This document shows, piece after piece, positions 6,352 to 49,916 of a stretch of 50,809 bases of DNA. Numbering within the stretch: position 1 is the stretch's first letter; the number at the start of each line of letters is the position of its first letter. This DNA comes from a phage. Location of the stretch: sequence record NC_136442.1. The stretch is one strand, 5' to 3'. Under the pieces are notes generated by a model that made no database searches, was not told the origin of the DNA, and was given only the letters and a program-made list of their open reading frames with translations. The translations under genes were made by a program, and so were the position numbers.

Positions 6352-6704
6352 TAATGAGGCTGGATCAGTTTAAGTGGTGTACACAGGTTCAGAACGGCGG
6401 CGGGGCAATGACGTCATCGAATAACGATCGAGAGATTGCATTCGGTAACGGATACACACAGGTAGCATCTGGAGGTTTTAACACAATCCGGCGAGAGTTT
6501 AGCATTGTTTACGCTGGGCTTGATTACAGAGATGTTGTCAAGTTCCTGAATGAGCACAGGCTAAAGCCTTTCTTGTGGATCATGCCTGATGGAAGCCCTG
6601 GATTGTTCAGGGTGAAAAGCGGCAGCGTCGGCCTTACTCCACTGTCGCCAACCGTTCAGGAAGTAAAAGCCACTTTTACGGAGCAATTTACATCAATGCA
6701 ATAA
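6348..6704 (+). CDS. minor tail protein (lambda M-like)
   Basis: 118 aa, ATGA overlap with tape measure stop; M-L-K-I-J synteny. Confidence 0.6.
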   Translation: MIMRLDQFKWCTQVQNGGGAMTSSNNDREIAFGNGYTQVASGGFNTIRREFSIVYAGLDYRDVVKFLNEHRLKPFLWIMPDGSPGLFRVKSGSVGLTPLSPTVQEVKATFTEQFTSMQ

Positions 6705-8259: not shown

Positions 8260-8836
8260 GCTATCTGGTTCCCTGGGTCGTAGATTTGGCGTCTTTCACA
8301 AAATGGCGGTTGACTCATACCCCGAAGCAATACGCGCGTTATCTTCCCAGGTTGAAGGGTTCAAGGACTACATGCAAAGCGAAGTAGGATCGCGAATGAA
8401 GTATGCTGTATTCGTTGATGGAAAAAACGTTGGTCAGCATGATGAAAAATCATGGAAGTGCGCGCGAGAGGTTCGAATAGTTCCTGTTCCAACTGGTTCT
8501 AAGTCCGGCGGCCTGTTCAATGTTGTTTTTGGTGCTGTAATTATGGCTACTGCGTTCATTACTGGCGGTGCAAGCCTGGCGGCTATGGGCGCTTTTGCAT
8601 CTTCCGCATTTATGATGGGTGGTGCTATCGCGCTTGGCGGTGTCATGCAAATGATCTCGCCGCAGCAGGGCGGAATGAAACTGCAAAGCCAATCAGCAGA
8701 AAATAAGCCTTCTTACGCTTTCGGAGGCGCAGTAAATACCACGGCGGCAGGTTATCCGGTTCCTTTGCCATATGGATATAGGACAGTAGGCGGCGCGATT
8801 TGGTCGGCTGGCAGCTACGCAGAAGATAAAGCATAA
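8240..8836 (+). CDS. tail assembly protein I-like
   Basis: 198 aa, glycine/alanine-rich hydrophobic C-terminal half, overlaps end of K. Confidence 0.65.
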   Translation: MTLKVIKLSGSLGRRFGVFHKMAVDSYPEAIRALSSQVEGFKDYMQSEVGSRMKYAVFVDGKNVGQHDEKSWKCAREVRIVPVPTGSKSGGLFNVVFGAVIMATAFITGGASLAAMGAFASSAFMMGGAIALGGVMQMISPQQGGMKLQSQSAENKPSYAFGGAVNTTAAGYPVPLPYGYRTVGGAIWSAGSYAEDKA

Positions 8837-8843
8837 AAAAATA

Positions 8844-8866
8844 CCCGCCTTGCGCGGGTTTTTTTG
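8844..8866 (+). terminator. intrinsic terminator after I
   Basis: ACCCGCC-TTGC-GCGGGT hairpin plus TTTTTTT. Confidence 0.8.
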
Positions 8867-8914
8867 TGCCTTTATAATGTGCAAACCAAGAAACAGCACA
8901 AAAGGTTAAAAGTC

Positions 8915-11900
8915 ATGGCTAAATATATGATAAGTGGCAGTAAAGGGGGCGGTCAAAAGCCCTACGTGCCAAAAGAGATGGAAGATAACCTGATCTCGAT
9001 AAACAAGATTAAAGTTTTGCTGGCTGTATCTGATGGCGAGTGCGATCCAGATTTTACGTTGCGTGATCTTTATCTTGATGATGTTCCGGTTATTGCCAGC
9101 GATGGCACTGTTAACTACGAGGGAGTTACGGCTGAATATAGGCCAGGTACGCAGACGCAAGATTACATCCAGGGTTTTACTGACACATCAAGTGAGGTTA
9201 CAGTTGCCAGAGATATTACCGGAGACAATCCTTATGTTATTTCTGTTACAAATAAAAACCTATCTGCGGTAAGAATAAAGATCCTGATGCCAGTAGGCAT
9301 TAAAACAGAGGATAATGGCGATCTTGTTGGCGTAAGGGTTGAGTATGCCGTAGATATGGCTGTTGATGGCGGTTCTTATAGCGAGGTTATGAGAGATGTA
9401 ATTGACGGCAAGACAAGATCAGGATACGACCGCAGCAGAAGGATTGATCTTCCTAAGTTTGATGAGCGCGTTTTAATCAGGGTTAAGCGACTTACCCCAG
9501 ACAGCACATCTTCAAAGGTGACTGATAAAATCAAACTGCAAAGTTACGCTGAGGTTGTGGATGCAAAATTCCGTTATCCTCTGACTGGCCTTGTATTTGT
9601 AGAATTTGACAGCGAATTGTTTCCTACACAAATCCCTAACATTTCTATAAAAAAGAAATGGAAGATTATTAATGTGCCAAGCAACTATGATCCAATATCA
9701 AGAGAATATCACGGGTCATGGGATGGGACTTTTAAGAAAGCGTGGTCAAATAATCCTGCATGGGTTCTTTATGATCTGGTGACGAATCAGCGTTATGGGC
9801 TTGACCAGCGAGAGTTAGGGATACAGATCGACAAGTGGAGCTTATACGAGGCAGGCGTTTACTGTGATCAGAAAGTTCCAGACGGTAAGGGCGGTACAGA
9901 GCCTCGCTACCTATGCGATGTGGTGATTCAGAATCAAGTTGAGGCTTATCAGCTAATCCGTGACATTTGCTCAATCTTTCGCGGAATGAGCTTTTGGAAT
10001 GGTGAGAGCTTATCAATCGTGATTGATAAGCCGCGCGATCCATCATACGTGTTTACTAATGAAAACGTCATCAACGGTGATTTTCAGTACACAACCGCAA
10101 GCGAAAAAAGCATGTACACGCAATGTAATGTGACGTTTGACGACGAACAAAACATGTATCAACAGGACGTCGAGGGGGTTTTTGATACTGAGGCGGCATT
10201 ACGATTTGGATACAATCCAACAAGCATTACAGCGATCGGGTGTACACGCAGGAGCGAAGCGAATCGTCGAGGTCGGTGGGTTTTGAAAACAAACCTTAGA
10301 AGCACTACTGTAAACTTTGCTACTGGACTGGAGGGGATGATTCCATCCATAGGTGATGTGATTGCTATCGCTGATAATTTTCAGAGCAGCAATCTAACGT
10401 TAAATCTTTCGGGCCGAGTAATGGAAGTTTCAGGCTTGCAAGTTTTCGTTCCGTTTAAAGTTGATGCGCGTCCTGGTGATTTTATTATCATCAATAAGCC
10501 GGACGGCAAGCCAGTTAAGCGAACGATCTCAAAGGTGAGCGCGGACGGAAAAACCATTGAGTTAAATATTGGCTTTGGTTTTGATGTTAAGCCAGACACT
10601 GTTTTTGCGATTGACCGTACTGACCTTGCGTTGCAGCAATACGTTGTGACCACTATCAGCAAGGGAGATGACGAAAACGAGTTTACCTATTCAATCACGG
10701 CTGTGGAGTACGATCCGAACAAATACGACGAGATTGATTATGGCGTAAACATTGATGACAGGCCTACTTCAATTGTTCAGCCTGACGTGATGGCAGCGCC
10801 GGAGAATGTTCAGATCTCATCTTATTCTCGCGTCGTGCAGGGTGTTAGCGTTGAAACTATGGTTGTTTCATGGGATAAGGTTCCTTACGCATCGCTTTAT
10901 GAAATGCAGTGGCGAAAAGGTGATGGTAACTGGCTGAATACGCCGCAGACCGCTAACAAAGAGATAGAGGTAGAAGGAATTTATTCAGGCAACTACCAAG
11001 TAAGGGTGAGATCCGTTTCTGCAAGCGGTAACACTTCCCCGTGGTCAAAGATTGCAACAGCTACCCTGACAGGTAAAGTTGGCGAGCCAGGAGCGCCGAT
11101 TAATCTTACAGCTTCTGATAATGAAGTTTTTGGCATTCGTGTCAAATGGGGCATGCCGGAAGGATCTGGCGATACGGCTTACATTGAGCTTCACCAATCG
11201 CCAGATGGAACGGTGGAAAACTCAAGTTTGCTTACGCTGATTCCATATCCTCAATATGAGTATTGGCATAGCACGTTACCAGCGGGTAAAGTTGTATGGT
11301 ATAGAATCCGTAGCGTTGACAGGATCGGCAACGTTTCAGGCTGGACTGACTTTGTTCGTGGCATGGCGTCAGATGATGTTGAATCTGTTTTAGGCGACAT
11401 TCTTGACAAGATTTTTGATACCGAAGCTGGTCAAGAAATCAAAGAGAACGCCATAGACAGTGCCAACAAAATCAAAGACCAGGCGCAATCAATCATCCAG
11501 AACGCATTGGCAAATGATTCTGATGTTAGAGTTATGAAAAAGGAGAATGGGAAACGGAAAGCTGAATTTAGGCAATCTATACAGATGATTGCTGATGAAA
11601 CAGAGGCAAGGGTAACAGCGTTAACGCAATTAAAAGCAGAATTTGATGAGGAGATAACTAGCGAAGTAACAAGACTTGATCAGGCGATCGCAACAGAATC
11701 AGAAACGCGAGCAACAGCTATAGAGGAATTAAAATCACAGATTGGTGATGATATTCAGGGGCAGTTAACGAGAGTTGAGGAAGCGATTGCAAGCGAAACA
11801 GAAGCGCGCGTTTCTGCCGATACTGCATTAACGGCAAAGTTTGGTGATCTTGAGTCAGCACTTACTGAAAAACTTGATTCATGGGCTGGCGTTGATTCCG

Positions 11901-22812: not shown

Positions 22813-22852
22813 CACTTTTTGTTAAAACTGGCGCGATGGATTGCGCCATAAT
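22809..22852 (+). promoter_or_regulatory. motif-type promoter cassette (motif, hairpin spacer, CATAAT) upstream of dam
   Basis: Consensus motif 22809-22828; inverted repeat GGCGCGATGGATTGCGCC in spacer; hexamer 22847-22852. Confidence 0.6.
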
Positions 22853-23880: not shown

Positions 23881-23923
23881 TAGCACTTTTTGTTAAAACG
23901 CCCGACCTAGTGTCGGGCATAAT
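23880..23923 (+). promoter_or_regulatory. motif-type promoter cassette (motif, hairpin GCCCGACCTAGTGTCGGGC, CATAAT)
   Basis: Read directly. Confidence 0.6.
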
Positions 23924-26429: not shown

Positions 26430-26821
26430 TGAAGAAATTTTTACTTACACCAATCGCAATGGCGGTGATCTTGTCTGGATGTTCAAGCGTTACGCCACTG
26501 ACCGGATTAATCGGCAGTAAGCCGGAAATCACAGCACAGGCTGGCGCGGAGAACGTGAAGCAGACAGTTGGCATTACAGCAAAGCAGGACGCCAGCACAA
26601 AACAGAAAACCACAATAAAGGAATCTGCGGTTGACAAGGTTGACACGTCCAGCAAGAAGGATTTCACAACATCAACCATTCAGGCCAATACCATCAAGGC
26701 AGACAAAATTCAGGTCGTGCAGGGTAATAACGGCAGATGGTACGATCCAATAATCATATGCGTGGTTGTGTTAATTGTGCTGATTTGTCTTTACTGGAGA
26801 GAAAAGAAAAAGGAGGCTTAA
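26426..26821 (+). CDS. unimolecular spanin (T1 gp11-like): lipoprotein signal plus C-terminal transmembrane helix
   Basis: Lipobox ILSGC at the N-terminus and C-terminal [15 protein letters not shown] helix in one polypeptide. Confidence 0.7.
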
Positions 26822-26840
26822 TGCCTCCTTTATTTTTATG
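26808..26840. terminator. bidirectional terminator between lysis cassette and leftward early genes
   Basis: AAGGAGGC-TTAA-TGCCTCCTT hairpin with flanking A/T runs. Confidence 0.7.
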
Positions 26841-27060
26841 CGTCGGGCCACATATGAGTTTCGTTTGTTGGCTTGTTCGATTCGTCGTACTGCCTTACTT
26901 CAATGCTGCAAGTGTCGCCATACATTCCTGCAATCTTGCGCTCATTTTCAACAGCCGATTGCTCACTCCATCCAAAATCCCTGTCATAAATTGTCGGGAT
27001 TTCAGCAGAAGATCCGTTGTCATGATTATATACGCGAACTACTAAAAACTTGCTGGACAT
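26836..27060 (-). CDS. hypothetical protein (74 aa)
   Basis: ORF downstream of a motif cassette with conserved leader and RBS. Confidence 0.55.
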   Translation of the reverse strand: MSSKFLVVRVYNHDNGSSAEIPTIYDRDFGWSEQSAVENERKIAGMYGDTCSIEVRQYDESNKPTNETHMWPDA

Positions 27061-27096
27061 AATTTTACCTTTTGGTTGTTTCGTTTCGATGAAACA

Positions 27097-27140
27097 AATA
27101 TACCCGACACTAGGCCGGGCGTTTTAACAAAAAATGCTAT
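27097..27140 (-). promoter_or_regulatory. motif-type promoter cassette (ATAGCATTTTTTGTTAAAAC, hairpin spacer, TATATT)
   Basis: Read on minus strand; hairpin GCCCGGCCTAGTGTCGGGT nearly identical to the one at 23900. Confidence 0.6.
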
Positions 27141-27331
27141 TCCATACGCTTTACCGTAACCAGTAATACACCATCATCATTGCATAAAACATGTTCAGTG
27201 GTGCTAAAAGCGCGCATATCTGAATAAAGTAGCGTAAGTAAAGCATGAATAAAATCCTCATGTGATATTGAATTTACGGCGCAGTGCTTCAAGATCTTGT
27301 CTATTAGCTTTTGCCTGGAACAATTCATCAT
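27137..27331 (-). CDS. hypothetical protein (64 aa)
   Basis: AGGGGAG RBS 7 nt upstream; stop TAG embedded in motif as for many early genes; overlaps 3' end of the upstream ORF. Confidence 0.45.
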   Translation of the reverse strand: MMNCSRQKLIDKILKHCAVNSISHEDFIHALLTLLYSDMRAFSTTEHVLCNDDGVLLVTVKRME

Positions 27332-27653
27332 CGCCCATCTCCCCTATTCTCGCCATATCCCTGATCCAGTCGTTGCGCATACCATCCAGGCTATACAATT
27401 CGAATCCGAAAGGCCGCTTTGACGATCCTTTGGACCAGTATTTTCCGCAGACCCCATCTATATAACCAGCCGTCATCATTCTTGCGCAAAATTCCTTAGA
27501 TGCAAGGCTGGCGAACATTCGCGGCGTAAGTCCGGCGGCCCTTGCGAGCCGCTCACATTCTCTATGCTGATAGATAAATTTGGCTATGTGCTGCCTGTTA
27601 AACCAGTCGTATGACTCACACCATTTATACAGATCAAGCAAAAACATAATCAT
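27258..27653 (-). CDS. hypothetical protein (131 aa)
   Basis: ATGA start-stop coupling with upstream ATPase gene. Confidence 0.55.
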   Translation of the reverse strand: MIMFLLDLYKWCESYDWFNRQHIAKFIYQHRECERLARAAGLTPRMFASLASKEFCARMMTAGYIDGVCGKYWSKGSSKRPFGFELYSLDGMRNDWIRDMARIGEMGDDELFQAKANRQDLEALRRKFNIT

Positions 27654-29230
27654 CCCAGCAGTATTGGATTGACAAAAATAACACCATTAATAACACAAAC
27701 ATAATTTCTTTCTTCCAGCATTGGCAGCAAGTGCCCTTCTATCCTCTTCATTACGCCAGCTTGACCAACGAAAGGTTTTACCTTTCTCGCTGATTCGTAC
27801 AGGGCGCGAATATTCAGAATCCCTTTATTAGCCTTGCCGTGTCTAGTGATCAATTCAATCAATTTGCCCATTTCAGCATCATCACCAGCATAACCAGAAG
27901 CATTGGCGGCGCTAATGTATGTTTTGCTCAATTCCTGAAACATGATCAGCGCCTCTTGCATTGTTTCCACGTCGATCTCTTTCGACTTCTGCGGGTATCC
28001 GGCAGGATTAAACCAGTTGCGGATAACATGCAGGACGGAAGCAAGCCTGATCACCTGTTTATCCATTTTACCCAGCGCACCGCGTAACATTGTATGAGAA
28101 TACTTTCCGCCGTCTGCAAGATGCGGTTCCATATCCTGGCGAGCAATGTTGAGCACTCGCATAGCTGAACGGCTTATTTTCAGCGATATATTTGATTCGC
28201 TCATGATGTTATGCACCAATTGATAATATTGGGCCTTCAATTCAGGATCCACCGCCTCATAGGTAGAATCACCATTTTCATCAATGAATGAGCGACGGCC
28301 TAAGAATGATTCCTCACGGACCAACAAAAAGCGCTCACTCACACCGATACCGCGCGATCCAGCGTCCATGATTCCGCTTATCGTTTCATCCTGGGCTATA
28401 ACGCTCATACATCCAAGCGCGCGAAAACTCATGTTATTGTCAGCATTAGCACGGGCAATTGATACGTGACCATTATCCCACGCCTTAAGCACTAGCTCGC
28501 TGTTAGTCTTCCTTTCGCTATTGGCATAGGTCAAGCCTAACAGGCTGTTAATACTTGTTGCTTCGTCAGATATTACGGCAAAGTTACCTTGCTTGTTGTT
28601 GATTTTCGCCAAGCCTTCTGGAGTGGTATCTGAAACAGGGAAAGTTATATCACACATCTTTTCCAGCTTCTCCTCCAGATCCTCTTTTTCCTGGTATAGA
28701 GATTCCATATCAGCGCCTGATCTTTCGCTTTTCATCTCCTTTGCAAGACCTGCCAACTTTGCCTGTATTTTCTTTCTTTCCTTGCGGCGTTGCTCGTTGA
28801 TCTTCTCAACTTCCGCAATCATCGGAGCAATAGCCATACTGTTGATCGCAGATTTACCAGTTGACGGCGGCTGGCTTGTAACGACGTAAAGCGCAGTCGG
28901 CTGATCGGTTCCGTGATAGTCAACTGTAAAGCGTCCAAGCATAGCGGCAGAAATGCAGCCGATAAAGTGCATGTAAGCCGATGATTCAGGGAATTGAACT
29001 GATCGCGCAATGCTGCGTGATAACTTGCCGACAACATCAATATCATTACCAAGAGAAATAACGGGGTAGCGATCGTGACCGCTATTTACATCCTTCACGT
29101 CGCCCCAAAAGCTGGACGACTGGCGATAGCCGTTAGCCTGAATTGATACGCGAACTGGTGAAAGGTTCTGGCTTTCAGCCATAGCGATTATTTGCTGTGG
29201 AGTTAATTTGTTCGTTTCTAATGAAAACAT
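27650..29230 (-). CDS. P-loop NTPase, putative replication helicase/primase-associated ATPase (DUF3987-like)
   Basis: Walker A-like SQPPSTGKS, 526 aa, AAGGAG RBS. Confidence 0.55.
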   Translation of the reverse strand: MFSLETNKLTPQQIIAMAESQNLSPVRVSIQANGYRQSSSFWGDVKDVNSGHDRYPVISLGNDIDVVGKLSRSIARSVQFPESSAYMHFIGCISAAMLGRFTVDYHGTDQPTALYVVTSQPPSTGKSAINSMAIAPMIAEVEKINEQRRKERKKIQAKLAGLAKEMKSERSGADMESLYQEKEDLEEKLEKMCDITFPVSDTTPEGLAKINNKQGNFAVISDEATSINSLLGLTYANSERKTNSELVLKAWDNGHVSIARANADNNMSFRALGCMSVIAQDETISGIMDAGSRGIGVSERFLLVREESFLGRRSFIDENGDSTYEAVDPELKAQYYQLVHNIMSESNISLKISRSAMRVLNIARQDMEPHLADGGKYSHTMLRGALGKMDKQVIRLASVLHVIRNWFNPAGYPQKSKEIDVETMQEALIMFQELSKTYISAANASGYAGDDAEMGKLIELITRHGKANKGILNIRALYESARKVKPFVGQAGVMKRIEGHLLPMLEERNYVCVINGVIFVNPILLG

Positions 29231-29258
29231 TCGTTAGCTTCTCCTTTGTGGGCCGTAA

Positions 29259-29302
29259 ATTTTAACGGCCCAATACTACCCCGTTTTGTCAAAAAGTGCT
29301 AT
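29259..29302 (-). promoter_or_regulatory. motif-type promoter cassette (variant ATAGCACTTTTTGACAAAAC, 18 nt, TAAAAT)
   Basis: Read on minus strand. Confidence 0.6.
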
Positions 29303-29520
29303 TTGATCCGCTCTATTGCAACCAGAAGTCGATCAGGCTGGCGGTCGCTGTAGCATTCTCCTGTAATCCCATCCTTAAACGTAAAGTAAAGCGCCTTATG
29401 ATATGAAAAACCAATCAGCCAACCTACCGCCGTTTTTTTGATGGGCCTGACTATATCGCCAGGCTTGAAAGTCTTTGTGGTAGAATGCGTTACTTTGTAA
29501 CGGTTTTCACTGTTTATCAC
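29299..29520 (-). CDS. hypothetical protein (73 aa, GTG start)
   Basis: GTGA overlap with upstream stop; GAGGGT RBS. Confidence 0.45.
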   Translation of the reverse strand: MINSENRYKVTHSTTKTFKPGDIVRPIKKTAVGWLIGFSYHKALYFTFKDGITGECYSDRQPDRLLVAIERIK

Positions 29521-29903
29521 AGATATTTACCCTCAAAAAGATAACAGCCGCCAGCAGAGAATCCGACCTCTTCACGGTACAGGTTCCAGCGATCGCCGCA
29601 CTCATCAAAAACATAACCCGCAACGCTTCCAAGCGGTCGCCCTTTCTCGATCTGGTATCGCTTGCCCTGCTTAAAGTGCTTTTTGCACGGCATGTTATGA
29701 TCTACAAACGTGCAAAGAACGGTTTTTGTGTTAATGGCGCGGTAATCATCTCGGTTTGCTGGAAGCCAGCGGCTACCCTTAACAAGCGTCTTAACCTGGA
29801 ACTCTTCCACCTCGATCACATCATCACTTCCTGCAATCTTCTGATAAACCGTTTTAAAACGGCCTTTCATCAATACGTTGGTTTCATTACAGACAACATT
29901 CAT
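29517..29903 (-). CDS. hypothetical protein (128 aa, Cys/His-containing)
   Basis: AAGGAG RBS; first gene after motif cassette. Confidence 0.6.
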   Translation of the reverse strand: MNVVCNETNVLMKGRFKTVYQKIAGSDDVIEVEEFQVKTLVKGSRWLPANRDDYRAINTKTVLCTFVDHNMPCKKHFKQGKRYQIEKGRPLGSVAGYVFDECGDRWNLYREEVGFSAGGCYLFEGKYL

Positions 29904-29932
29904 GATCAGATCTCCTTTGTTTGTTCGATGTG

Positions 29933-29976
29933 ATTATGCCAGGTTTTTACACCTGGCTTTTAACAAAAAGTGCTAT
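29933..29976 (-). promoter_or_regulatory. motif-type promoter cassette (motif, hairpin CCAGGTGTAAAAACCTGG, CATAAT)
   Basis: Read on minus strand. Confidence 0.6.
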
Positions 29977-30689
29977 TTTGAGTTTGACTCAAAGACGGCG
30001 CGAGCAAATCCGCGCGGAGTGAGGGAGCGGATCATCTTTGTGCGCGATGACTTACCGCCAGTTTTGGCCCAGCCTGGATTATCTTTGTCTTCCTCTTTCG
30101 GCAGGATTAAAGCGCGCGGAGGAATAACAAAGCCGTTGCCAGTCCAGAGGCACGTTTTCTTAAAATAGCGATCCCGTGCCGGAATAATATCAGGGAAGTC
30201 GGGATGTTTATCATCTTCCGGCAGATAGCCAGCGTAATCGCACGGATGGAACGTATAATCAGGCTTACGCCATAACGTTGACAACTTGCCAACCGGATTT
30301 TCGATCATGTAAGGAACACCGAAATAATCAGCTATATCAGCCGCAATTCTGCAAGTGTCGGCGGCCTCATCCTGGAATGATGGATTCTCAAGGCGTTTTT
30401 TGGCCCAATGGCGAGATCCGCTATTTGCAAGGTCGGTGCATGGTGGGAAGGCCATAATAAAATCAGGATTGCCCCACTCATTATTGATTGCCTTAACATA
30501 AAAAGCATCATCAATCCAGACGTTAACGTATTCGATATTCTCATGCTGTATGCGCACTGACTGGTAATCACCGTGATCGCCGCCGTCAGCATTAAAGCAA
30601 ATGCACTTATAGCCATTATCAGCCCAATCTTTAACGGCTTTACCAGATCCATCAAATAGGGAGAATATTAAACCTTTATACATCGTCAT
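29973..30689 (-). CDS. putative DNA (cytosine-5)-methyltransferase-like protein
   Basis: LFDGSG (motif I-like), PPC (motif IV-like), ENPVG (motif VI-like) in canonical order; alternative start at 30683. Confidence 0.45.
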   Translation of the reverse strand: MTMYKGLIFSLFDGSGKAVKDWADNGYKCICFNADGGDHGDYQSVRIQHENIEYVNVWIDDAFYVKAINNEWGNPDFIMAFPPCTDLANSGSRHWAKKRLENPSFQDEAADTCRIAADIADYFGVPYMIENPVGKLSTLWRKPDYTFHPCDYAGYLPEDDKHPDFPDIIPARDRYFKKTCLWTGNGFVIPPRALILPKEEDKDNPGWAKTGGKSSRTKMIRSLTPRGFARAVFESNSK

Positions 30690-30693
30690 TACC

Positions 30694-30918
30694 TCAAAAC
30701 GGAAAACAGCGCGCACAACCAGGATCGAAATCGCATCCACAATCATTAACAATCATAGTGGGATCTGCAAATATTGCGCTTGACTCAAGATCCATATCCA
30801 TATCACCTAAAGCCTCATCAAGAGTCTTAATTTTATATGCCACTTCAAGCGCCGCCTCTTTATTTAGTCCGGCATCTTCTGCCATTTGAAGGCGCTCAAA
30901 AAAACCATCTTGACTCAT
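30694..30918 (-). CDS. hypothetical acidic protein with C-terminal CGCDFDPGCARC motif
   Basis: 74-aa ORF, TGA/ATG coupling with upstream mini-gene. Confidence 0.5.
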   Translation of the reverse strand: MSQDGFFERLQMAEDAGLNKEAALEVAYKIKTLDEALGDMDMDLESSAIFADPTMIVNDCGCDFDPGCARCFPF

Positions 30919-31031
30919 CGCATAATCCCCTTAATAACAGCCAAGATAATAGCCAGGCCAGCAGCAGTAACCAAAAATCCAACCGCGCCAATAATCGAAT
31001 AAAAAAAGAAATCAATAGCTTTATCTATCAT
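30915..31031 (-). CDS. small hydrophobic membrane peptide (38 aa)
   Basis: MIDKAIDFFFYSIIGAVGFLVTAAGLAIILAVIKGIMR; GAGGTGG RBS; ATGA coupling to downstream gene; below ORF-track cutoff. Confidence 0.45.
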   Translation of the reverse strand: MIDKAIDFFFYSIIGAVGFLVTAAGLAIILAVIKGIMR

Positions 31032-31072
31032 TTTCCACCTCATTTAAAAGGCGGCAAACGCCGCCAGATTAA

Positions 31073-31300
31073 TTAAAGAGCGCGCCAACTTTGAATATAG
31101 AAAGCGTTTTCTTCCAGTAATTCTTTTACCTGATCTTTATTGTATTTGCGCACCTTGCCGCCTGGATGGATACCAATAAGATAGCCGCCTTTGCCCTCGG
31201 TAATAGTGATTTGGCTAATTCCGCAGGACTTATCAAGTTTTACAGCCACGCGGTGATGAGCGTCAATAGTTGCCATAATGTTTAAAACTTTTGCTTTCAT
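31073..31300 (-). CDS. hypothetical protein (75 aa)
   Basis: GAGGA RBS. Confidence 0.55.
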   Translation of the reverse strand: MKAKVLNIMATIDAHHRVAVKLDKSCGISQITITEGKGGYLIGIHPGGKVRKYNKDQVKELLEENAFYIQSWRAL

Positions 31301-31455
31301 TTAAATATCCTCAATTGAAATATGAATGACGTGGCGCTCTTTTTCCGTCGCCGCCGTAATGGTCATTTGCAACCGCCACCATCCAGGCATTTTTGAATAT
31401 AAAAAGCCTCATTTCTTATTTTTCAGCTTAAATTTATGAAATGGAATACCCGCCA

Positions 31456-31737
31456 TTATACGATCCCAGTTACGTTAAAACTTACAGCCTTTGTTGCGCT
31501 AAATACATAAGCATCAACAGCGCCGCCAAATACACGAATTTTACCCTGGCCGTACTGCGCATTCATATTTCGCCAAACCGTTCTATTAGAGCAGAATGCG
31601 CTACCAGTCTTAATAAGCGTATCCATCTCTTTTCTTAGATCGCGATAGTCCAGCCAGAATCTAAAGGCACGCTGTTTAATTCGCGCCGCCTTGATTTTTT
31701 CTCTTGCGCTATTGAAATCATTCTTTTCGTATGCCAT
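31456..31737 (-). CDS. hypothetical protein (93 aa)
   Basis: TAATG overlap with upstream gene. Confidence 0.5.
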   Translation of the reverse strand: MAYEKNDFNSAREKIKAARIKQRAFRFWLDYRDLRKEMDTLIKTGSAFCSNRTVWRNMNAQYGQGKIRVFGGAVDAYVFSATKAVSFNVTGIV

Positions 31738-31934
31738 TAAATGATCTCCATGTATGTTTCAAAGCCATTTAACTTGAACAGGCCGTTTTCACATTTGCGC
31801 ACGTTCCAAGTTAGCCCTGAGTGGTACGCCTCCATATCATCAAGGTCAATGGTGATTTCAGCACCTTTCTTAAACAAACCTTTTTCGTGAGACTTGTCGC
31901 GCTTAACAACTTTAACATCAACCTGATTTTCCAT
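31737..31934 (-). CDS. hypothetical protein (65 aa)
   Basis: Start MENQVDV follows cassette leader ...CATCGACAACAAGCGAGGATTTAAAG. Confidence 0.55.
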   Translation of the reverse strand: MENQVDVKVVKRDKSHEKGLFKKGAEITIDLDDMEAYHSGLTWNVRKCENGLFKLNGFETYMEII

Positions 31935-31965
31935 CTTTAAATCCTCGCTTGTTGTCGATGGGTGT

Positions 31966-32009
31966 AATATACCATTCAGGCGCACATCGTTTTTAACAAA
32001 AAGTGCTAT
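31966..32009 (-). promoter_or_regulatory. motif-type promoter cassette (motif with extra A, TATATT)
   Basis: Read on minus strand. Confidence 0.6.
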
Positions 32010-32296
32010 TCAACAACTTTTCCAGTTAAAGAGATAAGTTGCCTTGTGATCTTGTGGCGGCGATACTTACGCGCAACAACCGGAAGGTTTTCACCGCTTT
32101 GATGACCAAAGCAGATCGGCAATTCACCTTCAAGGGAGCGGAAGCCACCAAATTCAAGATCCCGCACTGGCTTAGCGCGCCAGGCTTCAATAAATCCGCG
32201 CTCGTCACGAGTGATATAGCGGTATATATTTGGGAGGGGCAATTGTATCCCCTCAAAATCAACTGTGTCGGTGTAGCTGTAAAACTTAGAACTCAT
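32006..32296 (-). CDS. hypothetical protein (96 aa from ATG 32296; frame open further upstream)
   Basis: GGAG RBS before ATG 32296; stop TAG embedded in motif. Confidence 0.5.
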   Translation of the reverse strand: MSSKFYSYTDTVDFEGIQLPLPNIYRYITRDERGFIEAWRAKPVRDLEFGGFRSLEGELPICFGHQSGENLPVVARKYRRHKITRQLISLTGKVVE

Positions 32297-32471
32297 AGTC
32301 AACAACTCCAAACTCGTTAACGATTTGCGCCTTGTAGAATCCGCCATTTTTCGCAAGGTTGTAGCAAGCGGCTACGGTTTCAAATTCGCGCGCTTCCGGC
32401 TGGCTGTTTTCGTGTTCCCAGGTAATCAGAGTAACCATTTTCAAATCCTCGCATTCGTTGTCGATGCGTGT

Positions 32472-32515
32472 AATGTACAGGAATACGAGGATTGAGTTTT
32501 AACAAAAAGTGCTAT
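32472..32515 (-). promoter_or_regulatory. motif-type promoter cassette (consensus motif, 18 nt, TACATT)
   Basis: Read on minus strand; leader ACACGCATCGACAACGAA. Confidence 0.6.
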
Positions 32516-32779
32516 TTAGTCCAGGAATTCGATTTCACGCTCTCCAGTTAACGGATCCACAAGCCAGAATCCGAGCGGTTCGCCGTGAACACCGCCATAG
32601 AATCCAAGCGCCGTCAGATCTTCACCTTTAACGAATACCAGATTCCCGCTACGGCTTACGTGAGACACGTTAACGATAACCGGAAATGTGCGATCCTTAA
32701 ATGCAGGCCGCAGGGCGTAACATCCGTTGTTGAGCAAACGTGCTTTGCGCTTAACTGGAATAGGTGCATTAATTTTCAT
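32516..32779 (-). CDS. hypothetical protein (87 aa)
   Basis: GGAG RBS; stop adjacent to motif. Confidence 0.55.
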   Translation of the reverse strand: MKINAPIPVKRKARLLNNGCYALRPAFKDRTFPVIVNVSHVSRSGNLVFVKGEDLTALGFYGGVHGEPLGFWLVDPLTGEREIEFLD

Positions 32780-32791
32780 GGTTATTACTCC

Positions 32792-33004
32792 TTATCGTAA
32801 AGATTTAAAGACGTATAGTTTACTGCGGTAACTATATATCCGCATTGTTATTTCTCGCAGTGCAATATATTCCTTCCTGTTTTCCGGCAGACTGGCGAGC
32901 AACAACAGGCAGTATTTATAAGCGCGGTCAAGATTCCTTTCCGTGCCCCTGCAATATCCCTTGTTGCGCCTGGAGCGGTACAGCCATAACAATTTCTTGA
33001 ACAT
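32792..33004 (-). CDS. hypothetical basic protein (70 aa); coding status uncertain
   Basis: ATG 2 nt after upstream stop; arginine-rich, weak RBS. Confidence 0.3.
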   Translation of the reverse strand: MFKKLLWLYRSRRNKGYCRGTERNLDRAYKYCLLLLASLPENRKEYIALREITMRIYSYRSKLYVFKSLR

Positions 33005-33005
33005 T

Positions 33006-33215
33006 TCAGATACGCCCATATAGATCACAGACTTCGTTGATAAAACAGCGTTGAGACTCTTTATCCTGCTTCTCAAACATCGCACGGCACTCATAGCGGT
33101 GATTATGTACGATGACAACAACCATATTTTCAGGTGCTGACGGGTTACGCGCGGAAGCGTCGCAGATTGAAACATCCATACCCATCTCATGTGCTTTCTT
33201 GATCACATCCAACAT
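33006..33215 (-). CDS. hypothetical protein (69 aa)
   Basis: AGGAG RBS 9 nt upstream of ATG 33215. Confidence 0.5.
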   Translation of the reverse strand: MLDVIKKAHEMGMDVSICDASARNPSAPENMVVVIVHNHRYECRAMFEKQDKESQRCFINEVCDLYGRI

Positions 33216-33469
33216 TTTTTCTTCTCCTGCAATAAGCAAACATCATTGATAAAATCAGCACGGCCCTTAATGTTGCTGATGTGGAACGTCTTTTCAGCGT
33301 ACAGGCCATCACCTTCAATCACGATCATTACGCGAGTCGGTTTATTTACGGGCGCACACGAAAAGAGTGGTCGCGCCGGAAGAAATTTAGTAGCCACATC
33401 CAGGTTAGCCCTGGCGGCCCTGCAAAACGCCTCCGCCAGATCCAAATCATTTTCGGTAATCACCGCCAT
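33203..33469 (-). CDS. hypothetical protein (88 aa)
   Basis: TAATG coupling with upstream gene. Confidence 0.5.
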   Translation of the reverse strand: MAVITENDLDLAEAFCRAARANLDVATKFLPARPLFSCAPVNKPTRVMIVIEGDGLYAEKTFHISNIKGRADFINDVCLLQEKKKCWM

Positions 33470-33741
33470 TACTTCTTGATCTCCTCACTGATAAATTTCA
33501 GCACCTGACGCAAGAAAACCTCGTTGTTGATAGTCGCTGGCAATTCTTCTTTCACTTCTTGCGGCAGATAGATATTGCCGTGCCAGGTCAAGCAATCGTA
33601 GTTGATACGATAAGAGCAAAGCCACTCGCAATCGTTATCTGCTTCCCAAATGCAGAGTTGCAGAACATCGCCAAAATCTTCAACAGTCAGATCCAGACCG
33701 TGACGCTTAGCGAAATTGAAAGTGGTTTTGCTGATGTTCAT
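33469..33741 (-). CDS. hypothetical protein (90 aa), first gene of the leftward early block
   Basis: Follows motif cassette; AGGAGA RBS. Confidence 0.6.
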   Translation of the reverse strand: MNISKTTFNFAKRHGLDLTVEDFGDVLQLCIWEADNDCEWLCSYRINYDCLTWHGNIYLPQEVKEELPATINNEVFLRQVLKFISEEIKK

Positions 33742-33775
33742 TGCTATCTCCTGAGCGGTTCGTTTCGATGTGTGT

Positions 33776-33819
33776 AATGTACCCGATCAGGTGGCCTGAG
33801 TTTTAACAAAAAGTGCTAT
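33776..33819 (-). promoter_or_regulatory. motif-type promoter cassette (consensus motif, 18 nt, TACATT)
   Basis: Read on minus strand; leader ACACACATCGAAACGAAC. Confidence 0.6.
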
Positions 33820-33850
33820 TTGACGGTTAGAGCCAGGATTGTGATCGAAA

Positions 33851-33938
33851 TAATCAGAAGTAATCATTCGTAATCAAATCACGTCAAAATGATGATTGCC
33901 TTTGCAAATTTGATGAGAAAAGTAATCACGTTTAATCA
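33851..33938. repeat. five TAATCA direct repeats phased at 10-bp intervals (33851, 33861, 33871, 33923, 33933)
   Basis: Read directly; helical phasing in a non-coding divergent region. Confidence 0.8.
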
Positions 33939-34358
33939 TTGGTTGCAGGGGAGATAGTGAAACATTCCCCTCTTGCCTCACTTTTCCGCCTGGCTGTCAG
34001 TGGTTGTTATGTTCCGTTCCCGCCTGTTCTTTTGTTGACCTTCCGCAAAATACGATAACAAAAAATAACAAACAATACCTATATAATACATTGAAAAATA
34101 AGGATTATTTATTTATATGTATCTATATATTCTCTTTTGTTATCTTGGTTATTGTGGTATTTGGTGGGGGTATATAGTTTTTGTGTATCTATATGTGTGT
34201 ATGGGTATGTAAGGGCATATATATCTATATGGCACTTTCCGCGAGAAAACTTCGATAACAATCAATGATAACATTGATTTATAAGGAAAAATAACGCCTA
34301 TATTGTTATTGTGCCACCATATAAAATTGATAAAACACGCGGGAACAAGAAAAAACAG

Positions 34359-34387
34359 TTGACACATTAAATAGCATTATTGATAAT
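34359..34387 (+). promoter_or_regulatory. consensus sigma70-type promoter TTGACA-17-GATAAT for the rightward early block
   Basis: Perfect -35, 17-nt spacer, -10 GATAAT, followed by AGGAGG RBS and ATG 34416. Confidence 0.7.
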
Positions 34388-34415
34388 GCCGACACCTAAC
34401 AACCAGGAGGCAGAA

Positions 34416-35137: not shown

Positions 35138-35177
35138 CACTTTTTGTTAAAACGCCAGGCGCAAAGCCTGGCATAAT
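35134..35177 (+). promoter_or_regulatory. motif-type promoter cassette (consensus motif, hairpin GCCAGGCGCAAAGCCTGGC, CATAAT)
   Basis: Read directly; leader AGCCTCATCGAAACGAGA then GAGGAA RBS. Confidence 0.65.
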
Positions 35178-49888: not shown

Positions 49889-49916
49889 TTGACGCTTTAA
49901 CAAAAAGTGCTATCAT
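49889..49916 (+). promoter_or_regulatory. sigma70-type promoter TTGACG-16-TATCAT upstream of major capsid gene
   Basis: Read directly; spacer is formed by the family motif in reverse orientation. Confidence 0.5.
49895..49913 (-). promoter_or_regulatory. 20-nt family motif, reverse orientation (CTTTAACAAAAAGTGCTAT)
   Basis: Read directly. Confidence 0.6.

What the first reader, a model, noticed from the sequence alone, without database searches (positions are those of the whole stretch)
26836..33741. Leftward early block of about 18 small genes of unknown function with translationally coupled starts
Apart from a P-loop ATPase and a C5-methyltransferase-like gene, this 6.9-kb block consists of 60-130-aa ORFs without recognisable motifs. 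Many are joined by ATGA, TAATG or GTGA overlaps and are punctuated by six motif cassettes. Members include an acidic protein with a CGCDFDPGCARC C-terminus (30694..30918) coupled to a 38-aa membrane peptide (30915..31031), and several Cys/His-containing small proteins. In lytic phages such early blocks typically hold host-takeover and anti-defence functions, so this is where novel inhibitors are most likely to be found.
Basis: inference. Interest (0 to 1): 0.6.

Follow-up and report, generated by a model that had tools for sequence, protein, structure and literature searches.

The report
Shuffled accessory-gene block of T1-like phage
This is the leftward non-structural gene block of a T1-family (Warwickvirus) coliphage: twenty real, mostly tiny genes in six promoter-cassette modules that relatives gain, lose and swap. 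It is ordinary in kind, but two members are already known triggers of bacterial immune systems, and one of those and its neighbour are predicted here to share the rare fold of the other.

Summary
Window 26836-33741 (minus strand) carries 20 ORFs, 18 of them 33-131 aa. The junctions ATGA, TAATG and GTGA, the six motif cassettes, the acidic Cys-tailed protein and the 38-aa membrane peptide are all as described. The window is a Warwickvirus (Drexlerviridae), 98.8% identical to phage tiwna and about 98% to SECphi27 and Bas04, so the block is already annotated in dozens of genomes. All 20 ORFs are under purifying selection.

"No recognisable motifs" is outdated. g8 is a Gp54-family protein (Pfam PF25180, PDB 9AXB), the CapRelSJ46 trigger family. 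g15 is 127/128 identical to the SECphi27 protein that triggers Mokosh type I. g17 is a DUF3987 ATPase and g14 a divergent C5-methyltransferase.

New here:
- The cassettes belong to a genome-wide family of at least 15 copies. They bound modules that are replaced, deleted or relocated in close relatives, like PeSL elements of T4-type phages.
- g19 is a conserved overlapping gene.

"Early" timing and anti-defence function remain inferred. This is an ordinary kind of locus with moderately interesting details.

The parts
33469..33741 (-). g1, 90 aa, acidic (pI 4.7), 4 Cys; first gene after cassette 1
   Evidence: phrog_6147 at E=3e-44. Present across Tempevirinae at 43-98% identity. dN/dS 0.03.
33203..33469 (-). 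g2, 88 aa; found only in Warwickvirus; joined to g1 by TAATG
   Evidence: No Pfam or PHROG hit. Found only in Warwickvirus. pN/pS 0.37.
33006..33215 (-). g3, 69 aa; overlaps the end of g2 by 13 nt
   Evidence: Good Shine-Dalgarno sequence. Reads through to 95 aa in tiwna (TGA to CGA). Fused to the g4 frame in Bas04 by a 1-nt deletion.
32792..33004 (-). g4, 70 aa, basic (pI 10.3); TGAaATG junction with g3
   Evidence: 15 synonymous against 6 non-synonymous polymorphisms, pN/pS 0.11. Annotated as a 213-nt CDS in NorthRox, EcoS-95 and others.
32516..32779 (-). g5, 87 aa; last gene of transcription unit 1
   Evidence: phrog_9595 at E=5e-15. dN/dS 0.13-0.25.
32286..32438 (-). g6, 50 aa, DUF7170
   Evidence: PF23776 at E=2.8e-28. 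The homologue, preceded by its own cassette, lies in the rightward block of Bas11 and RCIP0096.
32006..32296 (-). g7, 96 aa; overlaps g6 by 11 nt. Together with g6 it is the swappable cargo of unit 2
   Evidence: phrog_1972. g6-g7 are absent or replaced in 4 of 10 Warwickvirus genomes.
31737..31934 (-). g8, 65 aa, Gp54-family six-stranded beta-barrel; 100% identical to SECphi27 Gp19
   Evidence: PF25180 at E=1.7e-38. PDB 9AXB at E=4.4e-17. 100% identity to SECphi27. Literature.
31456..31737 (-). g9, 93 aa, basic; joined to g8 by TAATG; variable
   Evidence: Absent in 3 of 10 Warwickvirus genomes. dN/dS 0.15-0.18.
31311..31412 (-). g10, 33-aa micro-ORF
   Evidence: phrog_32259 at E=1e-19. dN/dS 0.05-0.12.
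31073..31300 (-). g11, 75 aa, basic; conserved as far as T1
   Evidence: phrog_4344. 38-63% identity across the family, including T1.
31050..31065 (-). GC-rich hairpin followed by TTTT (GGCGGCGTTTGCCGCC TTTTAAAT) between g11 and g12; candidate leaky terminator or attenuator
   Evidence: Terminator-like hit.
30915..31031 (-). g12, 38-aa single-pass membrane peptide; joined to g13 by ATGA
   Evidence: Maximum 19-residue hydropathy 2.5. Positionally conserved hydrophobic peptides occur in pSf-1, BEK1-23 and RCIP0096. dN/dS 0.34-0.45. pN/pS 0.14.
30694..30918 (-). g13, 74 aa, acidic (pI 4.1), with a C-terminal CxC-x5-CxxC knuckle
   Evidence: phrog_9323. 68-100% identity in 97 homologues. The Cys motif is nearly invariant in Tempevirinae and absent in T1.
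29973..30683 (-). g14, 236 aa, divergent C5-cytosine methyltransferase-like protein
   Evidence: phrog_757 at E=4e-85. FDGSG, FP(P/D)CT and ENPV are invariant. A family profile hits only C5-methyltransferases in the PDB, at E=0.02-0.5. No Pfam or NCBIfam hit.
29517..29903 (-). g15, 128 aa, orthologue of the SECphi27 Mokosh type I trigger. All-beta; the C-terminal part (about residues 57-128) is predicted to be Gp54-like
29299..29520 (-). g16, 73 aa; joined to g15 by GTGA; predicted Gp54-like barrel
27650..29230 (-). g17, 526 aa, DUF3987 P-loop ATPase, annotated 'DNA helicase' in relatives
   Evidence: PF13148 at E=6e-44 and phrog_2373. 58-100% identity across the family, including T1. 67 synonymous against 3 non-synonymous changes.
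27258..27653 (-). g18, 131 aa; joined to g17 by ATGA; mislabelled 'YdbL' in some records
   Evidence: phrog_2794. Conserved as far as T1, where the curators note weak HTH similarity. No PDB hit with the family profile.
27137..27331 (-). g19, 64 aa; own ATG and Shine-Dalgarno sequence inside g18; +1 frame; 74-nt overlap
   Evidence: phrog_9539. The same overlap of 71-89 nt, with a conserved ATG, is seen in 6 further phages from 5 genera including T1. BEK1-23 is the exception: an endonuclease is inserted there. dN/dS 0.08.
26836..27060 (-). g20, 74 aa, acidic; sole cargo of unit 6; found only in Warwickvirus
   Evidence: phrog_27210. Replaced by an unrelated 73-74-aa protein in pSf-1 and Devorator.
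33742..33820 (-). Cassette 1: box AATAGCACTTTTTGTTAAAA, -10-like TACATT at 33776-33781, leader CATCGAAACGAA, Shine-Dalgarno sequence
32439..32516 (-). Cassette 2 (-10-like TACATT at 32472-32477); upstream boundary of the swappable g6-g7 module
31935..32010 (-). Cassette 3 (-10-like TATATT at 31966-31971); downstream boundary of the g6-g7 module; drives g8 onward
29904..29977 (-). Cassette 4 (spacer hairpin GCCAGGT..ACCTGGC, -10-like CATAAT at 29933-29938); drives g15-g16
   Evidence: Hairpin dG -14.0, z -5.3.
29231..29303 (-). Cassette 5 (box variant TTGACAAAA, -10-like TAAAAT at 29259-29264); drives g17-g19
27061..27141 (-). Cassette 6 (spacer hairpin, -10-like TATATT at 27097-27102); drives g20
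26809..26831 (.). Bidirectional intrinsic terminator shared with the convergent lysis operon
   Evidence: Found on both strands.

Best explanation
The region is the leftward non-structural gene block of a Warwickvirus (Drexlerviridae, Tempevirinae) coliphage.

Organisation. It consists of six tandem transcription units. Each starts with a copy of a genome-wide, roughly 75-bp cassette: a 20-bp box AATAGCACTTTTTGTTAAAA, a 17-nt spacer that often forms a hairpin, a GGYATAAT -10-like element, a conserved leader, and a Shine-Dalgarno sequence. The block ends at a bidirectional terminator shared with the lysis genes. Within units, genes are packed by overlapping stop and start codons, so they are probably translated as coupled sets (inferred).

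Content falls into two parts.
- A family-wide conserved distal part: g11, g13, the C5-methyltransferase-like g14, g15-g16, and the DUF3987 ATPase g17 with g18 and the overlapping g19. This part probably serves DNA modification and replication.
- A hyperplastic part (g1-g10, g12, g20) of small accessory genes.

The cassettes also act as module boundaries. Whole cassette-plus-cargo units are replaced, deleted or moved to the opposite, rightward block in close relatives. The likely route is homologous recombination between the repeated boxes or leaders (inferred), as proposed for PeSL elements of T4-type phages.

At least three products (g8, the C-terminal domain of g15, and g16) adopt or are predicted to adopt the rare six-stranded Gp54 barrel. 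Members of this set are what CapRelSJ46 and Mokosh type I sense. I infer that these barrels are dispensable host- or defence-binding accessory proteins, made before the virion proteins. Their native targets are unknown.
For: Identity and context:
- 98.8% identity to tiwna over 100% of the block; 67 records cover at least 80% of it.
- The genome map shows the block between the lysis genes and a divergent intergenic region, opposite a rightward block of small genes that leads to the terminase.

All ORFs are real genes:
- dN/dS 0.02-0.45 against diverged relatives.
- pN/pS below 0.4 for all 20 ORFs.

Cassettes:
- 20 matches against 0.45 expected.
- 15 copies are co-oriented with downstream non-structural genes, with a fixed box-to-ATG distance of 70-78 nt and consensus aAATAGCACTTTTTGTTAAAAC-N17-GgtAtAaT.
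- They are conserved in Hanrivervirus, Tlsvirus, Henuseptimavirus, a Klebsiella phage and T1.

Module shuffling:
- Homology with SECphi27 and Bas04 stops at the box of cassette 3 (32010) and resumes at the box of cassette 2 (32497), with a different two-gene cargo in between.
- BEK1-23, tunus and KMB46 lack the unit; BEK1-23 carries one hybrid cassette at the junction.
- The cassette-plus-DUF7170 unit lies on the opposite strand, in the rightward block, in Bas11 and RCIP0096.
- The g20 cargo is swapped at the 3' end of the cassette 6 leader in pSf-1 and Devorator.

Conserved core versus variable part.

Functions:
- PF25180 and PDB 9AXB for g8.
- g15 is 127/128 identical to the Mokosh type I trigger, whose E7 frameshift mutant is viable.
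- DUF3987 for g17.
- C5-methyltransferase motifs, and C5-methyltransferase-only PDB hits, for g14.

Gp54 fold:
- hhalign puts FKKG of g8, FKQG of g15 and FKPG of g16 in one register. The Gly of that motif is the CapRel escape site G24D.
Against: - No expression data. 'Early' timing and promoter activity of the cassettes are inferred.
- TTGTTA lies 21-22 nt from the -10-like hexamer, so the cassettes are not canonical sigma-70 promoters. They may need a factor, which would make the block delayed-early or middle.
- Sequence-level homology among g8, g15 and g16 is not significant: hhalign E=0.04-0.33, and no cross-hits in a search of 1.84 billion proteins.
- The g16 model is confident in only 2 of 5 AF2 runs and rests on 8 similar sequences.
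- The SECphi27 copy of g8, identical to this one, does not activate CapRelSJ46.
- No inhibitor activity is known for any gene in the block.
- Some swaps (g2-g4, g9, the tiwna gp67-like gene) have junctions at gene boundaries, not at cassettes.
Confidence: 0.6

Rival explanations
1. The block is essentially a DNA replication and modification module. On this view g17 would be the helicase or initiator, g18 and g19 its partners, and g14 the methylase. The small ORFs would be replisome or regulatory accessories, not host-takeover or counter-defence factors. Their recognition by CapRel and Mokosh would be incidental.
For: - The most conserved genes are the DUF3987 ATPase, g18, g19 and the methyltransferase.
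- g17 shows 67 synonymous against 3 non-synonymous changes.
- The adjacent AT-rich repeat region could be an origin.
- Stokar-Avihail et al. conclude that defence systems tend to sense core rather than accessory phage functions.
Against: - g15 tolerates a frameshift at codon 7, and Gp54 of Bas11 is non-essential.
- g6-g7, g9 and g20 come and go among phages that are 97-99% identical, which core replication factors would not do.
- A separate primase, an SNF2-type helicase, an Erf-like protein and SSB lie elsewhere in the genome.
Confidence: 0.2
2. The resemblance of g15 and g16 to Gp54 is a generic small SH3-like barrel similarity, or an AlphaFold artefact. The three proteins would then be unrelated, and nothing would link the CapRel and Mokosh triggers.
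For: - No significant profile-profile score.
- Identities are 11-14%.
- Three of the five g16 models have pLDDT below 60.
- Standalone SH3-like proteins are common in Drexlerviridae (PMC13164509).
Against: - 9AXB was released in November 2024, and no templates were used in the predictions.
- Foldseek links the g15 model to a 73-aa Warwickvirus protein, probably the g16 orthologue, at probability 0.97.
- The FK-x-G motif is shared in the same register.
Confidence: 0.25
3. The cassettes are ordinary strong early promoters read by unmodified host RNA polymerase, with the A/T-rich box acting like an UP element. Their coincidence with swap junctions would reflect only that they are the main intergenic sequence, not any role in recombination.
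For: - The box resembles the UP-element pattern TTTT-N3-AAA (from my own knowledge of Estrem et al. 1998).
- The -10-like hexamers are good.
- The phage encodes no RNA polymerase.
- Other swaps occur at plain gene boundaries.
Against: - The box occupies about -50 to -31, roughly 8 bp closer than a UP element, and it replaces the -35 hexamer. No TG-extended -10 is present.
- The sigma-70 consensus scan does not call any of the six cassettes, yet it finds a near-perfect TTGACA-17-GATAAT at 34359-34387 for the rightward block.
- Sequence identity between relatives ends within a few bases of the box or the leader.
- A hybrid cassette marks the deletion in BEK1-23.
Confidence: 0.3
4. Many of the small ORFs are not genes; they would be chance ORFs in a transcribed spacer.
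For: g2, g3 and g4 have no family hit. g4, g10, g12 and g19 are missing from several database records.
Against: Every ORF shows an excess of synonymous change. Shine-Dalgarno sequences are present. 16 of the 20 ORFs have PHROG families.
Confidence: 0.03

Closest known systems
Orthologous blocks in Escherichia phages tiwna (gp59-gp75), SECphi27 (gp9-gp25) and FritzSarasin/Bas04 (bas04_0043-0062)
   Same: 97-99% nucleotide identity. Same gene order, same cassettes, same terminator.
   Different: - SECphi27 and Bas04 carry a different two-gene cargo in place of g6-g7.
- Most of the other Warwickvirus genomes examined (7 of 9, including tiwna and Bas04) have an extra 70-aa gene (tiwna gp67) between g9 and g10; SECphi27 and NorthRox lack it too.
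- g3 and g4 differ by frameshift or read-through.

Gp54 of phage Bas11 (Pfam PF25180; PDB 9AXB, 9ERV), direct activator of the fused toxin-antitoxin CapRelSJ46 (Zhang et al., Nature 2024, PMC11578894)
   Same: g8 is a full-length family member: 53% identical to Gp54 of Bas11 and 100% identical to SECphi27 Gp19. It sits in the same position in the leftward block, behind its own cassette. g15 and g16 are predicted to share the fold.
   Different: The SECphi27 Gp19 allele, identical to g8, did not activate CapRelSJ46. g15 and g16 are not sequence members of PF25180.
SECphi27 'protein of unknown function (128 aa)', trigger of Mokosh type I from E. coli ETEC H10407 (Stokar-Avihail et al., bioRxiv 10.1101/2022.08.27.505566)
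   Same: g15 differs by one residue (V4I) and two nucleotides. It has the same neighbours.
   Different: Nothing functional was tested here. The paper gives no fold or native function and does not link the protein to Gp54.
PeSL / PmSL composite promoter-stem-loop cassettes of T4-type phages (Arbiol et al. 2010, PMC2839356; Comeau et al. 2014, PMC4122927)
   Same: - Repeated conserved regulatory cassettes sit between small ORFs in non-structural, hyperplastic regions.
- They end in a Shine-Dalgarno sequence and a start codon.
- They coincide with insertions, deletions and replacements between close relatives.
- Recombination between tandem copies deletes the intervening genes.

   Different: - The phage family is different (siphovirus, about 51 kb).
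- There is no -35/N17/-10 arrangement. Instead a 20-bp box lies 21-22 nt from the -10, closer in logic to the Mot-box PmSL variant.
- The stem-loop, where present (9 of 15 copies), lies between the box and the -10 or around the -10, not upstream of the promoter.

Early accessory regions of lytic coliphages (T7 class I genes, T4 hyperplastic early regions, T5 pre-early genes)
   Same: Dense arrays of small, dispensable, fast-evolving genes, some of which inhibit or trigger host defences. This statement rests on my own knowledge; Ocr is cited as an example.
   Different: Timing and activities are unknown here. The block also holds conserved DNA-metabolism genes.
Standalone SH3 protein (DUF7244) of the Drexlerviridae lysis module (KanT1 study, PMC13164509)
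   Same: Another small SH3-like barrel encoded by T1-family phages.
   Different: It is a different gene family, located between the exonuclease and holin genes. It is mostly found in Tunavirinae, Braunvirinae and Rogunavirinae, and it is absent from this window.

Membership tests
Gp54 family (Pfam PF25180) - g8 | Sequence match above the Pfam gathering score over the full 65-residue model | tested here: met
   130.7 bits against a cut-off of 27, model positions 1-65 of 65. phmmer to 9axb_A gives E=4.4e-17.
Gp54 family (Pfam PF25180) - g8 | Activates CapRelSJ46 | not testable with these tools
   In the literature, the identical SECphi27 Gp19 was not toxic when co-produced with CapRelSJ46. This allele is therefore probably a non-trigger.
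Gp54 family - g15 and g16 | Sequence membership in PF25180, or a significant profile-profile score to the g8 family | tested here: not met
   No PF25180 hit at E<=0.1. hhalign gives E=0.04-0.33.
Gp54 fold - g15 and g16 | Six-stranded small barrel that superposes on 9AXB better than on any other solved fold | tested here: met
Mokosh type I trigger (SECphi27 128-aa protein) - g15 | Orthology to the tested protein | tested here: met
   127/128 aa identity, 385/387 nt identity, and the same locus.
Mokosh type I trigger - g15 | Toxic when co-expressed with Mokosh type I; loss of the gene lets the phage escape | not testable with these tools
   Shown for the SECphi27 protein only.
C5-cytosine DNA methyltransferase - g14 | Motif I (FxGxG), motif IV (PC, catalytic Cys), motif VI (ENV) | tested here: met
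   FDGSG, FP(P/D)CT and ENPV are invariant in 7 family members. Motifs I-IV align to M.HaeIII.
C5-cytosine DNA methyltransferase - g14 | Significant match to PF00145 or to a solved C5-methyltransferase; presence of a target-recognition domain | tested here: inconclusive
   No Pfam or NCBIfam hit. The family profile hits only C5-methyltransferases, but at E=0.02-0.5 and only over the N-terminal 85 residues. At 236 aa there is little room for a target-recognition domain.
DUF3987 P-loop ATPase ('DNA helicase' in annotations) - g17 | Pfam PF13148 above threshold, with Walker A and Walker B motifs | tested here: met
   151 bits against a cut-off of 27. PPSTGKS and VISDEA are visible in the sequence. 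Helicase activity itself is untested, and there is no PDB relative by sequence.
PeSL-type mobile regulatory cassette | Conserved repeated intergenic element ending in a Shine-Dalgarno sequence and start codon, concentrated among small non-structural ORFs | tested here: met
   15 co-oriented copies; box-to-ATG distance 70-78 nt in the six block cassettes. None precedes a virion gene; two odd antisense copies lie inside structural genes.
PeSL-type mobile regulatory cassette | Sigma-70-like -35, N17, -10 promoter | tested here: not met
   TTGTTA lies 21-22 nt from the -10-like hexamer. The consensus scan does not call the cassettes.
PeSL-type mobile regulatory cassette | Stem-loop just upstream of the promoter | tested here: not met
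   Hairpins with dG <= -10.9 occur in 8 of 15 copies (a ninth, cassette 5, has a weaker one at -6.7). They lie between the box and the -10, or enclose the -10.
PeSL-type mobile regulatory cassette | Indel and replacement junctions between close relatives fall in the element | tested here: met
   The g6-g7 unit is replaced or deleted with junctions in cassettes 2 and 3. The g20 cargo is swapped at the leader of cassette 6. The cassette-plus-g6 unit is relocated. Other swaps have junctions elsewhere.
Phage early-gene class | Transcribed in the first minutes of infection by host RNA polymerase | not testable with these tools
   No transcriptome for this family was found. Gene content and position are the only evidence.
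Anti-defence / host-takeover proteins | Demonstrated inhibition of a defence system or host process, or homology to a known inhibitor | tested here: not met
   No homology to any named inhibitor in Pfam, PHROGs, NCBIfam or the PDB. Activity cannot be tested here.

The most novel reading that the evidence does not exclude
The Gp54-type barrel is a Drexlerviridae-specific, paralogously expanded family (g8, the C-terminal domain of g15, g16 and possibly further cargo genes). Its members bind host or defence proteins. Different bacterial immune sensors (CapRelSJ46, Mokosh type I) have independently learned to recognise them, so one fold would serve as a recurrent 'pattern' for unrelated defence systems. 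In parallel, the box cassettes would be activator-dependent promoters that double as recombination modules, spreading such genes between the two divergent blocks and between phages.
Probability: 0.25. Interest if true: 0.65.

Novelty: new member of a known kind. Interest (0 to 1): 0.4.

Why it matters
As first described, the finding is generic: every lytic phage has a block of small unknown genes. This particular block matters for four reasons.

- It belongs to the SECphi27/BASEL phages used worldwide to study bacterial immunity.
- It already contains two experimentally defined immune triggers whose native roles are unknown.
- If the Mokosh type I trigger is indeed built on the same rare barrel as the CapRel trigger, there is a concrete structural hypothesis for what Mokosh senses. 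There is also a short list of paralogues (g16, g8) to test against both systems.
- The cassette-bounded module structure explains why near-identical phages differ in these genes. It also gives a simple rule for finding swappable cargo, that is, candidate counter-defence genes, across more than 500 Drexlerviridae genomes. It would extend the PeSL idea from T4-type myoviruses to a siphovirus family.

Tried and rejected
- Pfam, PHROGs and NCBIfam on all or half of the ORFs. Only DUF7170, Gp54, DUF3987 and unnamed PHROG families came back; NCBIfam gave nothing.
- Sequence searches of the PDB with g15, g17 and g14 as single sequences, and with the g18 family profile. No hits.
- All-against-all hhalign of the 20 families. 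No significant paralogy; the best was g7/g20 at 12% probability.
- HMM search of 1.84 billion representative proteins with the g16 profile. It found 8 proteins, no link to g15 or Gp54, and one spurious Calx-beta protein.
- Zinc-finger idea for g15. Rejected because C73, H76 and C102 are not conserved.
- The idea that g13 is a missing subunit of the methyltransferase. Weakened because T1 keeps g13 while lacking g14.
- The RAZR trigger Gp77 (Erf-like) lies outside this block.
- The KanT1 SH3 protein is a different gene and is absent here.
- Literature search for the box sequence found no phage paper.
- Rfam and tRNA scans found nothing.
- The 140-aa ORF of Bas04 as the 'true' g3-g4 gene. Rejected: it arises from a 1-nt deletion in an A-run that the other three phages aligned (this window, tiwna and SECphi27) lack.
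- The 'YdbL', 'TamB' and 'polyribonucleotide nucleotidyltransferase' labels on small ORFs in database records. No family search here supports them, and I treated them as spurious.

Full report
**What the window is.** The 6.9-kb block matches 296 phage records by megablast. Of these, 67 cover at least 80% of it. The best is Escherichia phage tiwna at 98.8% over 100% of the block, followed by NorthRox, SECphi27, FritzSarasin (Bas04) and other members of Warwickvirus (Drexlerviridae, Tempevirinae). The whole-genome map of tiwna places the block between the holin-endolysin-spanin genes, which converge on it, and a roughly 600-bp divergent intergenic region. Beyond that region a second, rightward array of small genes leads to the terminase genes.

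**Checking the observation.** The coordinates run exactly from the last stop codon to the first start codon of a minus-strand gene array, and GC skew is negative across it. I define 20 ORFs, g1 to g20.

- TAATG at g1/g2 and g8/g9.
- ATGA at g12/g13 and g17/g18.
- GTGA at g15/g16.
- Overlaps of 13 nt (g2/g3) and 11 nt (g6/g7), and TGAaATG at g3/g4.

The acidic 74-aa protein ending CGCDFDPGCARCFPF, and the 38-aa hydrophobic peptide coupled to it, are also as described.

The six cassettes are copies of a box, AGCACTTTTTGTTAAAA. It occurs 20 times in the window at up to 3 mismatches, against 0.45 expected.

**Are the ORFs genes?** Sixteen of the 20 ORFs have homologues in phages 70-88% identical at the DNA level. 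For these, dN/dS is 0.02-0.45. The four ORFs restricted to Warwickvirus (g2, g3, g4, g20) were tested with polymorphisms across nine further Warwickvirus genomes. All 20 ORFs have pN/pS below 0.4. The doubtful g4 gives 15 synonymous against 6 non-synonymous changes, g8 gives 7 against 0, and g17 gives 67 against 3.

g19 deserves a note. It starts at its own ATG, with a Shine-Dalgarno sequence, inside g18, in the +1 frame. The overlap of 71-89 nt is conserved in six further phages from five genera, including T1. BEK1-23 is the exception, because an endonuclease is inserted there. Many records do not annotate g19.

**What is recognisable.**
- g17 is a DUF3987 P-loop ATPase (E=6e-44). Pipelines label it 'DNA helicase'.
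- g14 has no Pfam or NCBIfam hit. It belongs to a PHROG named DNA methyltransferase. It keeps invariant FDGSG, FP(P/D)CT and ENPV motifs, and a family profile hits only C5-methyltransferases in the PDB (M.HaeIII, DNMT3B; E=0.02-0.5).
- g6 is DUF7170.
- g8 matches Pfam PF25180, 'Phage antiviral trigger protein Gp54', at E=1.7e-38, and PDB 9AXB at E=4e-17.

According to Zhang et al. (PMC11578894), Gp54 of Bas11 binds and activates the fused toxin-antitoxin CapRelSJ46. It is a rare six-stranded barrel, is non-essential, and has no known native function. The SECphi27 homologue Gp19 does not activate CapRelSJ46, and g8 is 100% identical to Gp19.

g15 differs by one residue from the SECphi27 '128-aa protein of unknown function'. 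A frameshift in that protein lets SECphi27 escape Mokosh type I, and its expression is toxic only in cells carrying that system.

Profile-profile comparison is not significant (E=0.04-0.33). It does, however, consistently align FKKG of g8, FKQG of g15 and FKPG of g16. The Gly of this motif is the CapRel escape site G24D. From strand order and this register, I infer that the Gp54-like part of g15 is roughly residues 57-128. That is also the part conserved in T1 and in the longer homologues.

This evidence is structural and predicted. I rate the shared fold as likely, at about 0.7. Common ancestry remains open.

**The cassettes.** Fifteen copies are co-oriented with downstream non-structural genes and share the consensus aAATAGCACTTTTTGTTAAAAC-N17-GgtAtAaT, followed by a leader resembling CATCGAAACGAA, a Shine-Dalgarno sequence and the ATG. 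In the six block cassettes the box starts 70-78 nt before the ATG.

TTGTTA lies 21-22 nt from the -10-like hexamer, so it cannot act as a -35 element for that hexamer. No TG extension is present. A sigma-70 consensus scan ignores the cassettes, yet finds a near-perfect TTGACA-17-GATAAT at 34359-34387 for the rightward block. Nine copies carry a hairpin between the box and the -10, or around the -10; eight of these are strong (dG <= -10.9).

The box is conserved in four other Tempevirinae genera, a Klebsiella phage and T1. I found no paper that describes it. I infer that the cassettes are promoters, possibly dependent on a factor bound at about -40. This is not shown.

**Module shuffling.**
- Against SECphi27 and Bas04, homology runs unbroken from 26700 to 32010, the box of cassette 3. 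It resumes at 32497, the box of cassette 2. The interval (spacer, -10, leader, g6, g7) is replaced by a different unit with its own spacer and two unrelated genes.
- BEK1-23, tunus and KMB46 lack the unit. In BEK1-23 a single hybrid cassette sits directly before the g8 homologue.
- In Bas11 and RCIP0096 the g6 homologue, preceded by a cassette, lies on the other strand in the rightward block.
- In pSf-1 and Devorator, cassette 6 is conserved up to the end of its leader, and then a different 73-74-aa gene replaces g20.

This behaviour matches what Arbiol et al. and Comeau et al. describe for PeSL elements of T4-type phages, although the architecture differs; the membership table gives the details. 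Not all variation follows this pattern. The junctions for g2-g4, g9 and the tiwna gp67-like gene lie at plain gene boundaries, and homing endonucleases are inserted in BEK1-23 and T1.

**Conserved versus variable parts.** g11, g13, g14, g15, g16, g17, g18 and g19 occur throughout Tempevirinae. Of these, g11, g13, g15, g17, g18 and g19 reach T1. In contrast, g1-g10, g12 and g20 are patchy or genus-specific.

g13 is highly conserved: 97 homologues at 68% identity or more, and dN/dS of 0.04-0.11 against Tempevirinae relatives. Its CxC-x5-CxxC tail is near-invariant in Tempevirinae but missing in T1. Its function is unknown.

g12-like hydrophobic peptides precede g13 in Warwickvirus, Hanrivervirus and a Klebsiella phage, but not in Bas11 or YSP2.

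**Interpretation.** Two members are known immune triggers and are dispensable. Bas04 is unusually resistant to restriction-modification for unknown reasons. However, no inhibitor is known here, the timing of expression is unmeasured, and the conserved half of the block looks like DNA metabolism.

The locus is an ordinary kind of phage feature and is already in the databases.
- the predicted Gp54 fold of the Mokosh trigger and its neighbour;
- the cassette-bounded module structure;
- the overlapping gene g19;
- selection evidence for every small ORF.

Noticed in passing
window 33821-34415: The divergent intergenic region of about 600 bp is AT-rich. It is full of short direct and inverted repeats: GATAACAA/TTGTTATC, GTAATCA, and TATCTATAT repeated three times. 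A near-consensus sigma-70 promoter, TTGACA-17-GATAAT, lies at 34359-34387 (+) and faces the rightward block. The region could hold operators or a replication origin.
   Followed up: partly
window 2963-2979 (-) and 49895-49911 (-): Two near-perfect copies of the cassette box lie antisense inside the virion-gene region, near the major tail and tape-measure chaperone genes and inside a head-region gene. They lack a clear downstream ORF. They might be antisense promoters or relics.
   Followed up: no
window 34416-about 43500 (+): The rightward block has the same architecture: about two dozen small hypothetical genes and at least five cassettes (35136, 35599, 36814, 38047, 40851). It exchanges cargo with the leftward block, as the DUF7170 unit shows.
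   Followed up: partly
window 27258-27331 (g18/g19 overlap); L007 2883-3080, L008 5649-5852: g19 is a conserved overlapping gene in the +1 frame, with its own ATG. It is not annotated in tiwna, SECphi27, Bas11, T1 and others.
   Followed up: yes
L002 (Bas04) 8844-9266; L001 (tiwna) 8759-9046; window 32792-33215: The 140-aa ORF of Bas04 is a fusion of g3 and the g4 frame, caused by a 1-nt deletion in an A-run. In tiwna the g3 stop codon has changed (TGA to CGA), giving 95 aa. EcoS-95 and G3B1 also show low g3 identity (74-83%).
   Followed up: yes
L004 (pSf-1) 5977-6627: The methyltransferase homologue of pSf-1 loses similarity after about residue 165, with an apparent frameshift and a different C-terminus. 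It may be inactive, or this may be a sequencing error.
   Followed up: no
L005 (BEK1-23) 2761-3147 and 5388-5906; L008 (T1) 7741-8280; L004 (pSf-1) 3075-3587: Homing or HNH endonuclease genes (in pSf-1 an unnamed 513-nt gene) are inserted between conserved genes of the block: between the g19 and g18 homologues, between the g16 and g15 homologues, and next to the g17 homologue. This is a second source of plasticity besides the cassettes.
   Followed up: no
L011 (SECphi27) 7677-8084 and L001 (tiwna) 7075-7287: SECphi27 gp20 (135 aa) and tiwna gp67 (70 aa) share a W-x-F-T-[KR]-G-x-E-Y motif that resembles FKKGAEIT of Gp54. They may be further members of the small-barrel set. This has not been tested.
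   Followed up: no
window 32222-32296 and 26986-27060: g7 and g20 both begin MSSKF and align weakly over their first 25 residues (hhalign probability 12%). Both are the first or near-first cargo after a cassette. This is probably chance.
   Followed up: partly
window 27102-27120, 29939-29958; also 22829-22848, 23900-23919, 35154-35173: In five cassettes a GC-rich hairpin abuts the box. Read on the opposite strand, the sequence is hairpin followed by TTTTAACAAAAA, which looks like an intrinsic terminator for antisense transcription. The cassettes may therefore insulate the units in both directions.
   Followed up: partly
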